DNA of 64,000 nt from a virus (IMGVR_UViG_3300022555_000046); one strand, 5' to 3'; shown: positions 824 through 13,031, numbered from the stretch's first letter. Numbers and translations: made by a program. Notes: generated from the sequence alone by a model not told the origin.

Positions 824-831
824 TTTGTGGG

Positions 832-897
832 TTTTTGGTGGATAAATTAATTTAGTCCCCGTCCCGCTCCGGTAGCAGGATAAGCGGATTCGGGGGC
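832..897 (-). other. GC-rich intergenic stem-loop
   Basis: Minus strand CCCCG-AA-TCCGCT-TATCCTGCTACCGG-AGCGGGA-CGGGG; shares the 3' CCGGRGCGGGAC with the element at 3248-3300. Confidence 0.4.
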
Positions 898-903
898 ATT
901 GCA

Positions 904-1047
904 TTACTGCTTGACTGGTCGAATGCTGTATGACTTGTTAAAACATTGTTTGGCGTACTGTTTGGCCTTCGCCTTACTTTCAAACATGCCAAAGTCAATC
1001 TCTTTGTACATGGCGTGAAAAATCAACCTGCATTTCTGTGCCTTCAT
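904..1047 (-). CDS. small hypothetical protein (47 aa)
   Basis: Manual ORF MKAQKCRLIFHAMYKEIDFGMFESKAKAKQYAKQCFNKSYSIRPVKQ; ATGA overlap with the upstream stop. Confidence 0.65.
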   Translation of the reverse strand: MKAQKCRLIFHAMYKEIDFGMFESKAKAKQYAKQCFNKSYSIRPVKQ

Positions 1048-1394
1048 TTAACGTCCTCCATTTTAGGGTGAATAATTTCAGATATAGCACAAAGTCCGTC
1101 TATTTTACGATACGACCAGATAGGTCCAGCCTTTGACCCTCCGGTAAGGATTCCAGATATCCCGATTCCTTTTGTCTCTTCGGTTATATCCTTAATCTCT
1201 CCCCGGGTAGCAATAAGCATAGATGGGTTCATGTTGGTGTAAATGTTTGCGTCCGTTACCCCAGACAATAAAAAGTCTGGGGATTCGTGAACAGAGTACT
1301 TTTCAAGAGCCTTAAAGTCATCCCAGTCAGTGACCGTGATAACGATGGCGAGGTGCCCGAATTTTCTGATAAATACGTTGTGCTGTGTAGACAT
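1044..1394 (-). CDS. hypothetical early protein
   Basis: 116 aa ORF, SD AAAGGAGG upstream, in operon. Confidence 0.7.
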   Translation of the reverse strand: MSTQHNVFIRKFGHLAIVITVTDWDDFKALEKYSVHESPDFLLSGVTDANIYTNMNPSMLIATRGEIKDITEETKGIGISGILTGGSKAGPIWSYRKIDGLCAISEIIHPKMEDVK

Positions 1395-1407
1395 TGCTTA
1401 TCCTCCT

Positions 1408-1692
1408 TTAGTTTAAGAATACTTTTGTTTTGATCCAGCTCATTACCTGTCCAGCGTAATAGCTGGAAGTAAGATCATTCAGGAAGTCATCCAGTTTACG
1501 GAAAGCACCGCCATCCCGGGACGCAACCTCGAGACGTGTCCATTCTTTCGCATTGCTCTGGTTGCTGGACCGTCTTGATCCTACTTTGTAGTCCCATTGT
1601 TTGCCGATAACCTTTACGGTCTTGGCTGTTGTTTCAACTGTGATGATGCCGCCTTTGCAGTATTCACCGATCTTCCATGTTTTTGTTGCCAT
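1408..1692 (-). CDS. hypothetical early protein
   Basis: 94 aa ORF, AAGGAG upstream. Confidence 0.7.
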   Translation of the reverse strand: MATKTWKIGEYCKGGIITVETTAKTVKVIGKQWDYKVGSRRSSNQSNAKEWTRLEVASRDGGAFRKLDDFLNDLTSSYYAGQVMSWIKTKVFLN

Positions 1693-1704
1693 TTTTTTGT
1701 CTCC

Positions 1705-2055
1705 TTATTTTGTGTGATAATTTTGGTGCTGATAAATAACGTTACTTTTATCTCTGGACTGTGTTATCTTAACAATACAGTGAGTGAGGATACCGCCACC
1801 GCCCATTGATCTTGCATTGTGGATCAGGAGAGGTATTTTTACCGTACCACAACTCCTGCCGATGGTCCCGGCTACATCGTAAATGTCTCCCCAGTCTTCC
1901 CCGGTCTCTACATTACCCCAGTGAAACCGGACCCGGGTGCGGTTGTTTTTGATGTTTTCAAGAATGTGAATCATTTCATCCGACGTCTCCTCGTTGTAAT
2001 ATGTGTCAGACGATGATACCTTGTACGTTCTGCCGTTGTGTGTTTCTGTTTTCAT
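1705..2055 (-). CDS. conserved phage hypothetical protein
   Basis: 116 aa; GxxWxxxYDVxGxIGRSxGxxKIPLL...GGGxILxxCI pattern recalled from phage proteins of unknown function. Confidence 0.75.
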   Translation of the reverse strand: MKTETHNGRTYKVSSSDTYYNEETSDEMIHILENIKNNRTRVRFHWGNVETGEDWGDIYDVAGTIGRSCGTVKIPLLIHNARSMGGGGILTHCIVKITQSRDKSNVIYQHQNYHTK

Positions 2056-2096
2056 TGCTTTGTGTATTAGGTTATTAATTACGTTAACTATGCCAT

Positions 2097-2179
2097 TTGC
2101 CGTGGGTCCTTGATCCCGTTATCTGTTATCCTGTCGGATTCTTCTGACACTTCTCAGGCGTGGAAAATCTCCACGGCAA
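2097..2179 (-). ncRNA. structured intergenic RNA closed by a 9-bp stem
   Basis: Perfect inverted repeat TTGCCGTGG (2097-2105) / CCACGGCAA (2171-2179) enclosing internal hairpins. Confidence 0.4.
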
Positions 2180-2181
2180 TA

Positions 2182-2235
2182 GTGGGTGGCGGCTCGGGGA
2201 CTCTCCGCTGTATTCCCATTCACCCGGGGTAATTA
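2182..2235 (-). ncRNA. repeated pseudoknot-forming RNA motif, copy A
   Basis: TAATTACCCCGGGTGAATGGGAATACAGCGGAGAGTCCCCGAGCCGCCACCCAC; near-identical to 4146-4200 with two compensatory base-pair changes. Confidence 0.65.
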
Positions 2236-2460
2236 CGAAACCCTCAACTGTCCTGCGGTTCCGTTTGAATAATAAACCTTACCAGTCTGGATATCCAAAA
2301 CCTGATAGTCGTAAAACTCTGGGGATACCTCCCCGTTCCAACTGGTCAGGTTAGAACCTGCACTGCAAGCATCATCCAGTCCTGTAAATGCAGCATGAAA
2401 ATCCCTTACCCCTCCTGCGGGGTAATACTCGAACATGCAGAATAACCAATACCTCTTCAT
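2233..2460 (-). CDS. hypothetical early protein
   Basis: 75 aa ORF on operon strand. Confidence 0.65.
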   Translation of the reverse strand: MKRYWLFCMFEYYPAGGVRDFHAAFTGLDDACSAGSNLTSWNGEVSPEFYDYQVLDIQTGKVYYSNGTAGQLRVS

Positions 2461-2505
2461 GGTACAAAGATTAGGTTATGTGGCAATATTGCCAATTGTT
2501 TTAGT

Positions 2506-2697
2506 TTATTCTTCCTGCTGGTCCAGCACATCGACTGGTGGCGTGTAATCCTTGAACCTCTTGGAGGACGTGTGAAACACGCTCCTTGTTGAGGGATCAA
2601 ACAAACAGGACTCACCAACCCTGATGATCCTTCCGGTCTCAGCACATACGCTCTGCGCCTTACTGGGGACGATTCTGACTTCTTTCTTGATCTTCAT
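2506..2697 (-). CDS. hypothetical early protein (Cys-containing)
   Basis: 63 aa ORF on operon strand. Confidence 0.6.
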   Translation of the reverse strand: MKIKKEVRIVPSKAQSVCAETGRIIRVGESCLFDPSTRSVFHTSSKRFKDYTPPVDVLDQQEE

Positions 2698-2715
2698 AAC
2701 TACTCTTTTAGGGGG

Positions 2716-2961
2716 TTAAAATAAAAATACGTGATACGATAAATTCTTGGTGGCTAATGAATAATAGATGTTTGCGACAATTTTCTTGTCGTTCTGAAGG
2801 GATATCCCGATGGTGGGATTTTCTGGCTCATAGGGCACAATGTCGATGTATCTGGTGCCAAAGAATACCGTTGTGGCTCCGATCTTCAACCAATCATTCT
2901 GAGACAGTCTTTTGGTGATGTATTCTGCCAATTGCTTTGATGTCCTTGGAGGATTTTTCAT
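2716..2961 (-). CDS. hypothetical early protein
   Basis: 81 aa ORF; ATGA overlap with upstream gene. Confidence 0.65.
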   Translation of the reverse strand: MKNPPRTSKQLAEYITKRLSQNDWLKIGATTVFFGTRYIDIVPYEPENPTIGISLQNDKKIVANIYYSLATKNLSYHVFLF

Positions 2962-3230
2962 TGCAGTAAAGATTTGAAACCAGTGTACACATTCTGTCTG
3001 TAAGCATTCGATGCATGGTCCAGCACTGAGGCGGTGAGGATCGAGGTAATAGAGCAGTTCCGTGCCTCGATTTCTGTCAATAATCCTTCAAAGGTGTGCC
3101 CTTTTTTAAGAGCGCAAAGAAGGTCCAGTCTTGATTTAATGGGGGCTGGATTCCATACCCCGGTGACCCTTGCTTGGATGTGGGCATCTGCGATGGCCTT
3201 CACATCCTTCTTGATTCTGTTTTTCGTCAT
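2958..3230 (-). CDS. hypothetical early protein
   Basis: Likely start MTKNRIKK at 3230 after an A-rich leader (track start 3278 falls inside the RNA element). Confidence 0.65.
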   Translation of the reverse strand: MTKNRIKKDVKAIADAHIQARVTGVWNPAPIKSRLDLLCALKKGHTFEGLLTEIEARNCSITSILTASVLDHASNAYRQNVYTGFKSLLQ

Positions 3231-3247
3231 TTTATCAGTATTAAGGT

Positions 3248-3300
3248 TTGTCCCGCCCCGGGTATCGAACCCGGGCAATAGACCAGATCAGCGAGGGGGT
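3248..3300 (-). ncRNA. tRNA-like fragment (acceptor-like stem plus T-arm, no anticodon arm)
   Basis: Minus strand CCTCGCT-GATCTGGTCTATTGC-CCGGG-TTCGATA-CCCGG-GGCGGGA-C. Confidence 0.45.
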
Positions 3301-3302
3301 GA

Positions 3303-3773
3303 TCATTTTACCTGTATTGCAGGCACAACACTTACATTAACATATCCACGGCTGCGAAAACCACCAGCCGCCTTTTCAGCATTAACAGCACTCTGGGACC
3401 ATCCCAGAACGGATCGTTTTATGTTCTTAGCCGCCTTCTCGTACTCGTCAACGTGCTTATTTATTGTTTCTTCAATATACGCTACCCTGTACGGGTTTTT
3501 GGCGATAAACTCATTGCCCTTGTCAATCGTTTCTTGATCGTAGCAACAATGGGATTTGGTCCACTGGAATTGAATATCCACCACAGAGGCATTCGCACAT
3601 TTGTTGTAATAATCCCAGTCTGACCCAAGTCTCTTGATACTGTCAGGAGACTGAGTCATCCTTATGCTTTTCAGATAGTCCCACTCCCCGATAATGGCGT
3701 GGGTATACATTTTAGGGGAAGTCCTTTTTGCTCCCGGGACCTCTTTACAGGTGAAAACGTGTTTCTTTTCCAT
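3303..3773 (-). CDS. hypothetical early protein
   Basis: 156 aa ORF on operon strand. Confidence 0.75.
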   Translation of the reverse strand: MEKKHVFTCKEVPGAKRTSPKMYTHAIIGEWDYLKSIRMTQSPDSIKRLGSDWDYYNKCANASVVDIQFQWTKSHCCYDQETIDKGNEFIAKNPYRVAYIEETINKHVDEYEKAAKNIKRSVLGWSQSAVNAEKAAGGFRSRGYVNVSVVPAIQVK

Positions 3774-3784
3774 TGTCTTCGTTA

Positions 3785-3868
3785 TTAATTATTGAATACC
3801 AGTACGATGATTGTCAGGAGGGTTCCAGCGATAAGCATAAGGATTCCCTCAGTGTGTTTGCCTCTCAT
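3785..3868 (-). CDS. single-TM micropeptide (27 aa)
   Basis: Manual ORF MRGKHTEGILMLIAGTLLTIIVLVFNN; TAATG overlap with upstream stop; fills the operon gap. Confidence 0.55.
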   Translation of the reverse strand: MRGKHTEGILMLIAGTLLTIIVLVFNN

Positions 3869-4104
3869 TATTTGATCGGCTTAAAAGTGTCGGTGATGAT
3901 GTACATGTGTCCGGTCCCTTCCGCTCTTCCTACGAGATTGAACCCGAGGTGGAACAGGTAGTTTTCGGCATCTTCCAGTCCGGTTTCACCGTCACGGGCG
4001 ATCCTTACTGATTGTTTGAAACGCTCAGAGGTGATAATTACTCTTGCTGGCAGGTGTTCCGTTGCTCCAACGGTTCTGACCTTGATAATGTTGAAATTTG
4101 GCAT
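3868..4104 (-). CDS. hypothetical early protein
   Basis: 78 aa ORF after an AC-rich leader. Confidence 0.7.
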   Translation of the reverse strand: MPNFNIIKVRTVGATEHLPARVIITSERFKQSVRIARDGETGLEDAENYLFHLGFNLVGRAEGTGHMYIITDTFKPIK

Positions 4105-4145
4105 GGTTTTGGGTTTTTGAGGTTTGTATTAAGTTGATTAACGTG

Positions 4146-4200
4146 GTGGGCGGTGGATCGGGGACTCTCCACTTGCATTCCCGTTCGCCCGGGGTGATTG
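4146..4200 (-). ncRNA. repeated pseudoknot-forming RNA motif, copy B
   Basis: CAATCACCCCGGGCGAACGGGAATGCAAGTGGAGAGTCCCCGATCCACCGCCCAC; covaries with copy A. Confidence 0.65.
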
Positions 4201-4201
4201 G

Positions 4202-4399
4202 CTATCCTTTAGGATACCCAGTGCCATACTTGTAGTCATTGTTATGCAGCGAAGTGATAAATTTATCATTCGCCTTCTTGCTTTTAAAGATCGCAATACC
4301 AAAAAAGGGCGATCCGTCCCGGTGTGTTGCTACGCCATCATGGGAGTTAACCACGTATTTGGAGCGGCCTACATGCATCATCGTGTTGTACAGTTTCAT
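4202..4399 (-). CDS. hypothetical early protein
   Basis: 65 aa ORF, SD AAAAGGAGG. Confidence 0.7.
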   Translation of the reverse strand: MKLYNTMMHVGRSKYVVNSHDGVATHRDGSPFFGIAIFKSKKANDKFITSLHNNDYKYGTGYPKG

Positions 4400-4413
4400 T
4401 GTTTATCCTCCTT

Positions 4414-4725
4414 TTAAATGAATTGATACCATGTTTCAACTGTTGATACCAGTACACATTCCTGATTGAAGGTGTCCCGAAACCTTTCTGCTATTTCCTT
4501 GGCGGTCAGGCCAGTGATGGCCTTATCCATGTTGATAAAGGAAACAACCAGTGATACTTCCTGAACTTGTTTCCAGTATCCGATCTGTTCTGACACTGAG
4601 AATGCGTGTATTTCGTATTCTGCAAGCATCTTCGCAATTGTTACCTTGGCGGCATCTTTAGCTATTGCATCGCCTTCTTTGGTTGTCATCCCGACAAACC
4701 AGTTGTATTGAATCGCTTTCTTCAT
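4414..4725 (-). CDS. DUF3574 / SAM-lyase-like (PII-type fold) protein, tentative
   Basis: GYWKQVQEVSLVV and IAERFRDTFNQECVL match the G-[YW]-x4-E-x-S...F-x-Q-E-x-V-L pattern. Confidence 0.45.
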   Translation of the reverse strand: MKKAIQYNWFVGMTTKEGDAIAKDAAKVTIAKMLAEYEIHAFSVSEQIGYWKQVQEVSLVVSFINMDKAITGLTAKEIAERFRDTFNQECVLVSTVETWYQFI

Positions 4726-4754
4726 TGTGTGTGGGTTTTAAGGGTTAATACTTG

Positions 4755-4825
4755 TACCTATCTGCTGGAATCGAACCAGCATCCCCGGGGCAAACCCCGG
4801 TGTAATACCGTTATACTAAGAAGGT
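4755..4825 (-). tRNA. degenerate tRNA-like gene (Gln-TTG-derived; 6-nt/tetraloop anticodon arm, bulged acceptor, no CCA)
   Basis: ACCTTCT-TA-GTATAACGGTATTAC-A-CCGGG-GTTTGC-CCCGG-GGAT-GCTGG-TTCGATT-CCAGC-AGATAGGT-A: canonical D and T arms. Confidence 0.7.
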
Positions 4826-5300
4826 CTTCGCAGGATCATTGAAACGGGCACCCAACATACGGGTGATCCTAATCAGTAAGACAACCACCGGACCAACGTG
4901 GAACGGTTAATTTAAGCGGAAACGCTTGTGCCCTCTGCATCATCTGCGGTGGGCTGGAGGCGAATGTCAGGAGTAATGCTGACTTCCGATTATAGTGTCA
5001 CTTAATATGATCAAGTGAACCTGCTACCCTTTATTCTCTGGTGTGAGTCCCCGACTTCACTCATGGTTACTGTTTCTGGATCATTGCACTGACTCACGTC
5101 TGGACACCTGCTGATTCACATCAGGGGGCTTGATCTGGGTTTTCTTGATCCCAGTGTACCGTTGTGACCGTTGTTACTGGGGTGTCAATCTTTCACCGTG
5201 GGAAGGAGGATTTCAGGAAGTCAAAGAACTTAAAGTGGGATCATTCTAAATCACGGGACGAATCCCGGGGGTCAAATGGTGACGCAGTAAATAAAGAACG
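4826..5300 (-). ncRNA. candidate long structured non-coding RNA or leader
   Basis: No credible ORF; many hairpins (CGGGA-TTCG-TCCCG, GTGAGTC/GACTCAC, CACTT/AAGTG, GTCAG/CTGAC, AAGCG/CGCTT, GGATCA/TGATCC) directly downstream of a consensus promoter. Confidence 0.4.
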
Positions 5301-5306
5301 ATGCGG

Positions 5307-5337
5307 CAAAAATAATATGAATAGAGACGCTTGTCAA
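5307..5337 (-). promoter_or_regulatory. early leftward promoter
   Basis: TTGACA-N17-TATTTTTG. Confidence 0.75.
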
Positions 5338-12913: not shown

Positions 12914-12997
12914 TTATTTACAACCACATTTTCCACCTTTTCCTCCCTTGCCACCTTTGGTGGGTTTTCCTGAAGGTTTACCTTTCGATCCAGCCAT
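12914..12997 (-). CDS. 27-aa Gly/Lys-rich basic micropeptide
   Basis: MAGSKGKPSGKPTKGGKGGKGGKCGCK; own promoter, A-rich leader and terminator. Confidence 0.65.
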   Translation of the reverse strand: MAGSKGKPSGKPTKGGKGGKGGKCGCK

Positions 12998-13031
12998 TTG
13001 ATTCTGATTTTAACATTAATGAAAAAGCGCA

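What the first reader, a model, noticed from the sequence alone, without database searches (positions are those of the whole stretch)
824..5300. Early operon punctuated by structured RNA modules before AC-rich leaders
Seen: one promoter (5307-5337) is followed by a structured leader, a tRNA-like gene, motif B, a T-arm fragment, motif A with a long hairpin, and another stem-loop. Each sits between gene blocks and is followed by a similar leader (AAAACCCACACACAATG, AAAAACCCAAAACCATG, AAAAACCCACAAAATG). Two other junctions share TAAAGGAGGATAAGCAATG / TAAAAGGAGGATAAACAATG. Inference: tRNA mimics and pseudoknots may recruit RNase P/Z or block exonucleases to cut the transcript into separately stabilised mRNAs, or may be crossover points for cassette shuffling.
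Basis: partly seen in the sequence, partly recalled or inferred. Interest (0 to 1): 0.7.

Follow-up and report, generated by a model that had tools for sequence, protein, structure and literature searches.

The report
tRNA-like punctuation marks in phage operon
Between the early genes of an uncultured lake phage of Bacteroidota sit five small RNA folds that copy all or the top half of a tRNA and end in a CCA-like tail. They probably tell the host's tRNA-trimming enzymes where to cut one long message into pieces, but no RNA data exist to show it.

Summary
The features are real and lie on the minus strand. One consensus promoter (5337-5307) is followed by a 475-nt ORF-free leader and about 14 small genes. 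Five G+C-rich intergenic elements split these genes into blocks.

The first element (4825-4754) scores as tRNA in Rfam but has a 6-nt anticodon loop, so it cannot decode. Motifs A and B are two copies of one roughly 50-nt fold with two compensatory pair changes. I found no homologue of it in any collection searched. The "T-arm fragment" and the last hairpin share the same architecture as A and B: a 9-12-bp stacked helix on a continuous 3' strand, followed at once by AC-N-A. That is a tRNA top half with discriminator and a CCA-like tail.

The "AC-rich leaders" are ordinary. The same A-rich, TTAA-rich start regions precede genes throughout the genome, as expected for Bacteroidia-type translation initiation. 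The leader as a whole folds no better than shuffled sequence.

Best reading (about 40%): tRNA-mimic processing signals for RNase P, perhaps with RNase Z, like plant-mitochondrial t-elements. This scan has reported the same kind of element on other phage DNA at least eight times. Cleavage is untested: no RNA run holds this phage, and all recovered copies are identical.

The parts
5307..5337 (-). Early leftward promoter, TTGACA-N17-TAnnTTTG (Bacteroidota type).
   Evidence: Eight other promoters of the same composite form head other units in the window. None lies inside the operon.
4826..5300 (-). 475-nt non-coding leader, a chain of about 11 small hairpins.
   Evidence: No ORF over 42 codons in any frame. 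Fold z = 0.06. The sub-element 4960-4900 has z = -2.5.
5211..5228 (-). 18-nt box in the leader, conserved in the nearest syntenic relative and resembling boxA.
   Evidence: 17 of 18 bases identical to L020:1335-1352, while the rest of the leader cannot be aligned. Its first seven bases match the boxA consensus GYTCTTTAANA of PMC5725501.
4750..4825 (-). tRNA-like element: full cloverleaf, canonical T-arm and D-loop GG, 6-nt anticodon loop closed by a G-C pair, one bulge in the acceptor stem, tail ACAA.
   Evidence: Rfam RF00005 at 37.4 bits, E = 2.4e-5. ARAGORN. About 75% identity to phage tRNA-Trp genes over 56-62 nt.
4144..4197 (-). Motif B. P1 is 4190-4186 with 4152-4148. P2 is 4172-4168 with 4157-4153. 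There is a 13-nt connector with GGG, a 10-nt loop with CCCC, and the tail ACCA at 4147-4144. The P1 helix begins 11 nt after the stop codon.
   Evidence: No Rfam match.
3248..3297 (-). T-arm element. The acceptor-like P1 (3297-3291 with 3256-3252, 2-nt bulge) is followed by a 15-nt connector with GG and a T-arm hairpin (6 bp, loop TTCGATA). The tail is ACAA at 3251-3248.
   Evidence: Sequence reading. Exact GGTTCGATNCC occurs only twice in 64 kb, here and in the tRNA-like element. ARAGORN at an 80% threshold calls a weak tRNA at 3329-3249.
2180..2230 (-). Motif A, the paralogue of motif B. P1 is 2225-2221 with 2188-2184. P2 is 2208-2205 with 2192-2189. The tail is ACUA at 2183-2180. The P1 helix begins 7 nt after the stop codon.
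   Evidence: It lies in a different reading frame from motif B relative to the upstream stop codon.
2097..2178 (-). Long branched hairpin closed by a perfect 9-bp stem, directly after motif A.
   Evidence: z = -2.87, with 0 of 200 shuffles as stable. No AC-N-A tail.
853..896 (-). Hairpin of about 11 bp (5 + 6 bp with small irregularities) with the tail ACUA at 856-853. It lies between the 47-aa gene and the 440-aa gene.
824..852 (-). A/C-rich translation start region. Equivalent stretches are 4726-4749, 4105-4143, 3231-3247 and 2056-2096.
   Evidence: This is a genome-wide property of gene starts, in line with PMC6847099.
4397..4417 (-). Stop codon, then an extended Shine-Dalgarno sequence, then the start codon. 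The twin junction is at 1392-1412.
   Evidence: D13: 18 nt, 94% identical. 12 of 70 gene starts carry an SD-like core.

Best explanation
The five G+C-rich intergenic elements are tRNA-derived or tRNA-mimicking processing signals ('punctuation marks') in one long early transcript made by host RNA polymerase.

Each element presents what tRNA 5'- and 3'-end enzymes read: a stacked helix of 9-12 bp on a continuous 3' strand (the acceptor/T-arm top half), followed by a discriminator-like A and a CCA-like C-N-A. RNase P would cut at the 5' edge of each element, a few nucleotides after the upstream stop codon. RNase Z, or an A/U-specific endonuclease, may cut after the tail. This would split the message into blocks of two to four genes. 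Each block then starts with an unstructured A-rich leader of the Bacteroidia type.

Shown here: the folds, their shared anatomy, tRNA identity for one of them, compensatory changes in motif A/B, the single promoter, and the lack of U-tracts.

Inferred: recognition and cleavage by RNase P/Z, and any effect on mRNA stability.
For: - The tRNA-like element passes the Rfam tRNA model. It keeps U8, the D-loop GG, a 5-nt variable loop and a canonical T-arm, but has only a 6-nt anticodon loop. The tRNA shape is kept while decoding is lost.
- The exact T-loop word GGTTCGATNCC occurs twice in 64 kb, both times in gaps of this operon.
- Motifs A and B differ at 8 positions. Four of these make two compensatory pairs and none breaks a pair. 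Under random substitution this has a probability of 0.0009-0.009. The two copies lie in different frames relative to the upstream stop, so the conservation is not coding.
- All five elements are followed at once by AC-N-A, as is a sixth hairpin further down the operon at L023:12912-12936. The per-position frequency of AC.A upstream of genes is 0.023. None of the 8 other intergenic hairpins of the window has this tail; most are terminators with U-tracts.
- Two elements in relative L020 and one in L016 have ACCA, ACAA and (U)ACAA tails.
- There is only one promoter for at least 15.8 kb.
- Precedents: t-elements and acceptor-like stem-loops direct RNase P/Z cuts at mRNA ends (PMC1920247). RNase P cleaves small pseudoknots that carry RCCA (PMC12710915).
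Against: - No RNA data exist.
- I drew the helix boundaries, and therefore the AC-N-A rule, after seeing the sequences. A crude genome-wide scan for any 5-bp stem followed by AC-N-A shows no enrichment.
- Motif A/B has no T-loop motif. Its helices are 9-10 bp, not 12.
- The bases at -1 and +1 are mostly C/G or C/C, not the preferred U/G.
- Only motif B has a true ACCA tail.
- Folding z-scores are weak.
- Motif A/B has no homologue anywhere I searched.
- The closest relative carries a different element in the motif A slot.
- The third L020 element and the hairpins of L017 and L019 lack the tail.
Confidence: 0.4

Rival explanations
1. The elements are generic stability and processing hairpins. 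Stable G+C-rich structures just after stop codons would block 3'-to-5' exonucleases. An RNase E/G/Y-type enzyme would cut in the A/U-rich stretch behind them, giving segment-specific mRNA half-lives. On this view the tRNA likeness is ancestry or coincidence.
For: - Each helix begins 5-11 nt after a stop codon, and a TTAA-rich single-stranded stretch follows.
- None has a U-tract, so they are not terminators.
- Relatives L017 and L019 have G+C-rich hairpins at gene junctions without AC-N-A tails.
Against: - This does not explain the full cloverleaf with intact tertiary landmarks.
- It does not explain the canonical T-loop in two elements.
- It does not explain the shared 9-12-bp continuous 3' strand or the AC-N-A tail.
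- TTAA enrichment is genome-wide at gene starts, so it is no evidence for a cleavage site.
Confidence: 0.25
2. The elements are relics without function. A former phage tRNA gene cluster is decaying: one pseudo-tRNA and one T-arm remnant are left, and the other hairpins are by-products of the genome's richness in CCGG-type palindromes.
For: - The tRNA score is low, 37 bits.
- The T-arm element fails the Rfam tRNA model.
- CCCGGG occurs 76 times, and neighbouring copies form stems automatically.
- No conservation was found in the relatives fetched.
Against: - The compensatory changes in motif A/B argue for selection on pairing.
- The pseudo-tRNA has lost only its decoding loop.
- Every element sits exactly in a gap, ends in the same tail and lies in the transcript sense.
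- The genome is otherwise 92% coding.
Confidence: 0.1
3. Motif A/B is a cis-regulatory RNA of its own kind: a protein or ligand binding site, a stop-codon readthrough stimulator, or a small self-cleaving ribozyme. It would be unrelated to tRNA enzymes.
For: - It is a compact pseudoknot-capable fold starting 7-11 nt after a stop codon.
- It has invariant 13-nt and 6-nt unpaired stretches.
- The frames after both stops stay open for 57 and 38 codons.
Against: - No Rfam family matches, ribozymes and riboswitches included, at E up to 10.
- The readthrough frames differ relative to the motif, and one overlaps the next gene.
- There is no expression platform.
- Only two copies are known.
Confidence: 0.12
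4. The elements act at the DNA level as crossover points for shuffling early gene cassettes, like the promoter-stem-loop cassettes described in T4-type phages (from my own knowledge, not checked here).
For: - Gene order differs in relatives. In L016 the 116-aa gene is followed by the 156-aa gene type. L020 shares only 2 of about 14 genes.
- An element resembling the T-arm element lies at another junction in L016.
Against: - No breakpoint is mapped to an element.
- The elements contain no promoter.
- The compensatory changes point to a folded single strand.
- Apart from A/B, the elements share too little sequence for homologous exchange.
Confidence: 0.08

Closest known systems
t-elements of plant mitochondria (Forner et al. 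2007, PMC1920247)
   Same: Non-decoding tRNA-like folds and acceptor-like stem-loops lie inside long transcripts, next to mRNA ends, and carry the T-arm word GGTTCRANYCC. One t-element ends the cox1 leader, just as the tRNA-like element here ends the 475-nt leader.
   Different: Those act in organelles with mapped RNA ends. Here the setting is a bacterial virus with no RNA data. Three of the five elements lack a T-loop, and two are pseudoknot-capable miniatures.
Mitochondrial tRNA punctuation model (own knowledge: Ojala et al. 1981)
   Same: One long transcript is divided at tRNA-shaped signals by RNase P and RNase Z.
   Different: There the signals are working tRNAs that abut the coding regions. 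Here they are non-decoding mimics, each followed by an 18-43-nt leader.
RNase P model substrates: acceptor/T-arm minihelices and RCCA-tailed pseudoknots (PMC12710915; minihelices from own knowledge)
   Same: A stacked helix with a 3' R-C-C-A tail suffices for bacterial RNase P. Motif B has exactly G-C as its first pair followed by ACCA.
   Different: The other four tails are ACAA or ACUA, and the helices are 9-11 bp. Nothing has been tested.
Earlier reports of this scan on other phages and mobile elements
   Same: They describe armless tRNA-like minihelices between early genes and interpret them as RNase P/Z cut sites.
   Different: Those are AI notes, not evidence. Several had large conserved families. 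Here the elements have no detectable relatives, and one operon shows a graded series from a full cloverleaf to a bare hairpin.
Bacteroidia-type translation initiation regions (Baez et al. 2019, PMC6847099)
   Same: The leaders are A-rich and G-poor, with A at -12/-13 and -3 and little structure.
   Different: None for the 'AC-rich leaders', which are ordinary. The 12 SD-led genes are the unusual part.

Membership tests
tRNA (Rfam RF00005) | Covariance-model score at or above the gathering score | tested here: met
   4825-4756 scores 37.4 bits against 29. No other element reaches E of 10 or better.
tRNA (Rfam RF00005) | 7-nt anticodon loop with a readable anticodon | tested here: not met
   The loop is 6 nt on a 5-bp stem, and a G-C pair can close it to a tetraloop. 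ARAGORN reports 'tRNA-??? (tt)'. It is therefore tRNA-like, not a working tRNA.
t-element / tRNA-like processing signal | T-arm with the word GGTTCRANYCC | tested here: inconclusive
   The tRNA-like element matches 11 of 11 bases and the T-arm element 10 of 11. Motifs A and B and hairpin 896-853 have no T-loop.
t-element / tRNA-like processing signal | Acceptor-like helix stacked on a hairpin, followed by a discriminator and a CCA-like tail | tested here: met
   All five elements have continuous 3' strands of 9-12 nt followed by ACAA, ACCA, ACAA, ACUA and ACUA. The background frequency is 0.023 per position. None of 8 other intergenic hairpins has the tail. I set the helix borders.
t-element / tRNA-like processing signal | Transcript ends coincide with element ends; cleavage by RNase P or RNase Z | not testable with these tools
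   No RNA run holds the phage. Only DNA contigs were available.
Intrinsic terminator | G+C-rich hairpin followed by a U-tract | tested here: not met
   The scan calls none of the five. True terminators of this genome carry U-tracts.
Any Rfam family for motif A/B (riboswitches and self-cleaving ribozymes included) | Match to a curated covariance model | tested here: not met
   No hit at gathering score and none at E up to 10.
Bacteroidia-type translation initiation region | A-rich and G-poor upstream region with A near -12/-13 and -3, mostly without SD | tested here: met
   Across 70 starts, A is 50-67% at -14 to -12 and 43% at -3; 58 of 70 starts lack an SD core. Criteria are from PMC6847099.
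boxA antitermination signal | Match to GYTCTTTAANA in a leader, and binding by NusB/NusE | tested here: inconclusive
   5229-5219 matches 9 of 11 positions of the consensus for gamma-proteobacteria. The box is conserved in L020. I could not obtain the Bacteroidota consensus, and binding is untestable here.
Promoter-stem-loop shuffling cassettes of T4-type phages | An early promoter inside each repeated intergenic element | tested here: not met
   No TTGACA...TAnnTTTG promoter lies in operon sense downstream of 5307.

The most novel reading that the evidence does not exclude
Motif A/B is a new, very compact pseudoknotted RNA class that stands in for a tRNA as a cleavage signal, or cleaves itself. 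The operon would then be a natural tRNA-punctuation system in a bacterial virus. It would also carry a leader segment (5054-5045, followed by ACACCA) that is perfectly complementary to the 10-nt loop of both motifs and could act like an external guide sequence for RNase P.
Probability: 0.08. Interest if true: 0.8.

Novelty: new variant of a known kind. Interest (0 to 1): 0.5.

Why it matters
If host tRNA-processing enzymes cut phage messages at tRNA mimics, phages would use the punctuation logic known from mitochondria. This would set the dosage and lifetime of early gene blocks without extra promoters or terminators.

This operon shows, side by side, a full cloverleaf that has lost only its anticodon loop, an armless T-arm form, a pseudoknot-capable miniature and a bare hairpin, all with the same tail. 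That series gives a ready set of substrates for asking what bacterial RNase P and RNase Z minimally need in vivo. It also flags such elements as something annotation pipelines miss or miscall as pseudo-tRNAs.

Tried and rejected
- **DNA search against phage records:** no match.
- **Motif A/B patterns in IMG/VR:** none found.
- **Motif A/B pattern in JGI metagenome contigs:** 14 hits, all chance.
- **Motif A/B pattern in GTDB genomes:** 9 hits, all at or below 17 bits against 86-91 for the true copies.
- **Covariance model of A/B:** no further copy in the relatives' loci or in the rest of the genome.
- **Protein-anchored relatives:**
  - The 116-aa and 440-aa gene families gave loci L016-L022, L054 and L055.
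  - None of these carries motif A/B or a tRNA.
  - The 103-aa first gene has no homologue by the word-index search.
- **Leader and promoter boxes in IMG/VR:** the hits were coding sequence or unrelated contigs.
- **Sequencing runs:** no RNA holder listed.
- **Laid contigs of four runs, plus three other assemblies:** identical to the window, so there is no microdiversity to use for covariation.
- **CCCGGG as a special signal:** it is 5-fold over a dinucleotide model but only 1.18-fold over a maximal-order Markov model. Rejected as a driver.
- **Complementarity of the A/B loop to the leader and to hairpin 896-853:** weakened, because the 8-mer CGGGGACT is over-represented genome-wide, 9 occurrences against 1.6 expected.
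- **Genome-wide stem + AC-N-A scan:** uninformative.
- **Readthrough reading:** the frames are open but inconsistent.
- **ARAGORN in mitochondrial mode:** no call in the operon.


Full report
**What the window is.** The 64-kb window is most of a phage genome of about 74 kb. The same sequence sits on contigs of 73.5-75 kb in several freshwater and lake metagenomes. Its terminase is 26-30% identical to those of Cellulophaga, Flavobacterium and Maribacter podoviruses.

Its promoters have the form TTGACA-N17-19-TAnnTTTG. Its gene starts are A-rich and mostly lack a Shine-Dalgarno sequence. Both features point to a Bacteroidota host.

**Checking the observation.** The promoter at 5337-5307 is real by consensus. 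It is the only promoter of that composite form in operon sense for at least 15.8 kb, counting the 10.5 kb beyond the window that I recovered as L023.

Between the promoter and the first gene lie 475 nt with no ORF longer than 42 codons. This leader is a string of small hairpins, but as a whole it folds no better than shuffled sequence (z = 0.06). One 18-nt box (5228-5211) is 17 of 18 bases identical in the closest syntenic relative, L020, whose leader is otherwise unalignable. Its core resembles boxA.

The genes then fall into blocks separated by five G+C-rich gaps (G+C 0.49-0.54, against mostly 0.20-0.45 in other gaps).

**The AC-rich leaders are ordinary.** Across 70 gene starts of the window:
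- A reaches 50-67% at -14 to -12.
- G is depleted.
- TTAA is 3.8-fold enriched upstream and occurs before 40 of 70 genes.

This is the pattern described for Flavobacterium johnsoniae, where adenines at -3, -6, -12 and -13 and low structure tune SD-independent initiation (PMC6847099). The resemblance among the three quoted leaders is therefore a genome-wide property. It is not a module attached to the RNA structures.

The two near-identical SD junctions are confirmed. They belong to a minority of 12 SD-led genes.

**The tRNA-like element.** Region 4825-4754 scores 37.4 bits on the Rfam tRNA model, above the gathering score of 29. ARAGORN draws a cloverleaf with the following features:
- a 7-bp acceptor stem with one bulged U;
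- U8, a D-loop with GG and a 5-nt variable loop;
- a perfect T-arm with the loop UUCGAUU;
- an anticodon loop of only 6 nt that a G-C pair can close to a tetraloop.

It resembles real phage tRNAs only generically. The L-shape landmarks are kept while decoding is lost.

**Motifs A and B.** The two copies are 85-86% identical. Their helices begin 7 and 11 nt after stop codons, in different frames relative to the upstream gene, so the conservation is not protein-coding.

Both fold as P1 (5 bp), a 12-13-nt connector, a P2 hairpin (4-5 bp) and then the P1 3' strand, with no spacer between the P2 and P1 3' strands. Of the 8 differences, 4 form two compensatory pairs, one in each helix, and none breaks a pair. 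Under random substitution this outcome has a probability of 0.0009-0.009. An invariant GGG in the connector can pair with the CCC run of the 10-nt loop.

No Rfam family matches. I found no third copy in any of these:
- the rest of the genome;
- relatives' loci;
- IMG/VR;
- JGI metagenomes;
- GTDB genomes.

**A shared architecture.** Reading the T-arm fragment base by base gives the same topology as motifs A and B:
- an acceptor-like P1 (3297-3291 with 3256-3252);
- a 15-nt connector containing GG;
- a 6-bp hairpin with the canonical T-loop;
- the P1 3' strand with no spacer.

The last element (896-853) is a plain hairpin of about 11 bp. In all five elements the continuous 3' strand is 9-12 nt long. 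It is followed immediately by ACAA, ACCA, ACAA, ACUA and ACUA, which reads as a discriminator A plus a CCA-like tail.

A sixth case, a 7-bp hairpin followed by ACCA, lies further down the same operon at L023:12912-12936. AC.A occurs at 2.3% of positions upstream of genes. None of the 8 other intergenic hairpins in the window carries it; most of those are terminators with U-tracts.

In relatives, two L020 elements end in ACCA and ACAA, and the L016 element ends in (U)ACAA. A third L020 element and the hairpins of L017 and L019 do not.

Two caveats apply. I set the helix borders after seeing the sequences. A crude genome-wide count of any 5-bp stem followed by AC-N-A shows no enrichment.

**Mechanism.** A stacked helix with an R-C-C-A tail is what bacterial RNase P reads; minihelix substrates are from my own knowledge, and RCCA-tailed pseudoknots are in PMC12710915.

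In plant mitochondria, non-decoding tRNA-like t-elements and even acceptor-like stem-loops mark mRNA 5' and 3' ends made by RNase Z and RNase P. One of them ends the cox1 leader (PMC1920247). That is the arrangement of the tRNA-like element here, 28 nt before the first start codon.

I therefore favour tRNA-mimic punctuation of a single long early transcript, at about 40% confidence. Which enzyme cuts, and on which side of each element, is inference.

**What speaks against it.**
- No RNA run holds this phage.
- All recovered copies are identical, so there is no population variation to use.
- Motif A/B lacks a T-loop.
- The cleavage-site contexts are not ideal for RNase P.
- In the 80%-identical relative L016, the slot of motif A holds a different, Y-shaped element.

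**Rivals.**
- **Plain stability and processing hairpins (25%).** This explains the position of the elements but not their tRNA features.
- **Motif A/B as a separate cis-regulator or ribozyme (12%).** This cannot be excluded with two copies.
- **Decaying tRNA genes (10%).** This conflicts with the compensatory changes and with the selective loss of the anticodon loop.
- **DNA-level cassette exchange (8%).** Its only support is that early gene order differs among relatives.

**Earlier work of this scan.** After I had reached the minihelix reading (note), a look-up showed at least eight earlier reports of armless tRNA-like minihelices between phage or mobile-element genes, read the same way. These are unchecked AI notes on other DNA and add no evidence here. 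They do mean that this kind of element is not new to the scan.

What this window adds is a graded series of forms in one operon of a Bacteroidota phage, and a pseudoknot-capable miniature with no detectable relatives.

Noticed in passing
window 5211-5228 (-); L020:1335-1352: An 18-nt leader box is conserved 17 of 18 bases in a relative whose leader is otherwise unalignable. Its core GTTCTTTGAC resembles boxA, so the long operon may be read by termination-resistant polymerase.
   Followed up: partly
window 5045-5054 (-): The leader contains a perfect 10-nt complement of the loop shared by motifs A and B, followed by ACACCA. The core 8-mer CGGGGACT is itself over-represented in the window, 9 occurrences against 1.6 expected.
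   Followed up: partly
whole window: There is strong avoidance of several 6-bp palindromes: ACCGGT 0 against 15.7 expected, AGATCT 0 against 8.9, and AAGCTT, AGCGCT, ACGCGT and ACTAGT all 0. TCCGGT and ACCGGA are 3-6-fold over expectation. This looks like restriction-site avoidance.
   Followed up: partly
window 1392-1412, 4397-4417 and 10 other gene starts: 12 of 70 genes carry an SD-like core, in a phage whose host ribosomes should be blind to SD. Two of them share an identical junction of stop codon, AGGAGGAUAA and start codon. In Flavobacteriia, SD-led rpsU is translated by ribosomes lacking bS21 (PMC9976891).
   Followed up: no
window 12915-12998 (-): A 27-codon ORF rich in Lys and Gly and ending in Cys-Gly-Cys-Lys forms its own unit. 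It has a consensus promoter (13062-13032), and CCCGGG-stem terminators lie on both sides of the unit.
   Followed up: no
window 3786-3838 (-): A 17-codon hydrophobic mini-ORF lies between the 78-aa and 156-aa genes.
   Followed up: no
L020:1133-1271: The nearest relative has a small gene between its promoter and the conserved leader box. By eye it looks like a ribbon-helix-helix protein. The window phage lacks this gene.
   Followed up: no
L018:8560-8900 (-): An unrelated phage that shares the 116-aa gene has a 1.7-kb non-coding region. It holds at least two T-arm plus acceptor-like stretches that ARAGORN and Rfam do not call.
   Followed up: no
L016, L020 versus window 824-5300: The early region is highly plastic. 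L016 places the 156-aa gene type right after the 116-aa gene. L020 shares only the 90-aa and 440-aa genes.
   Followed up: partly
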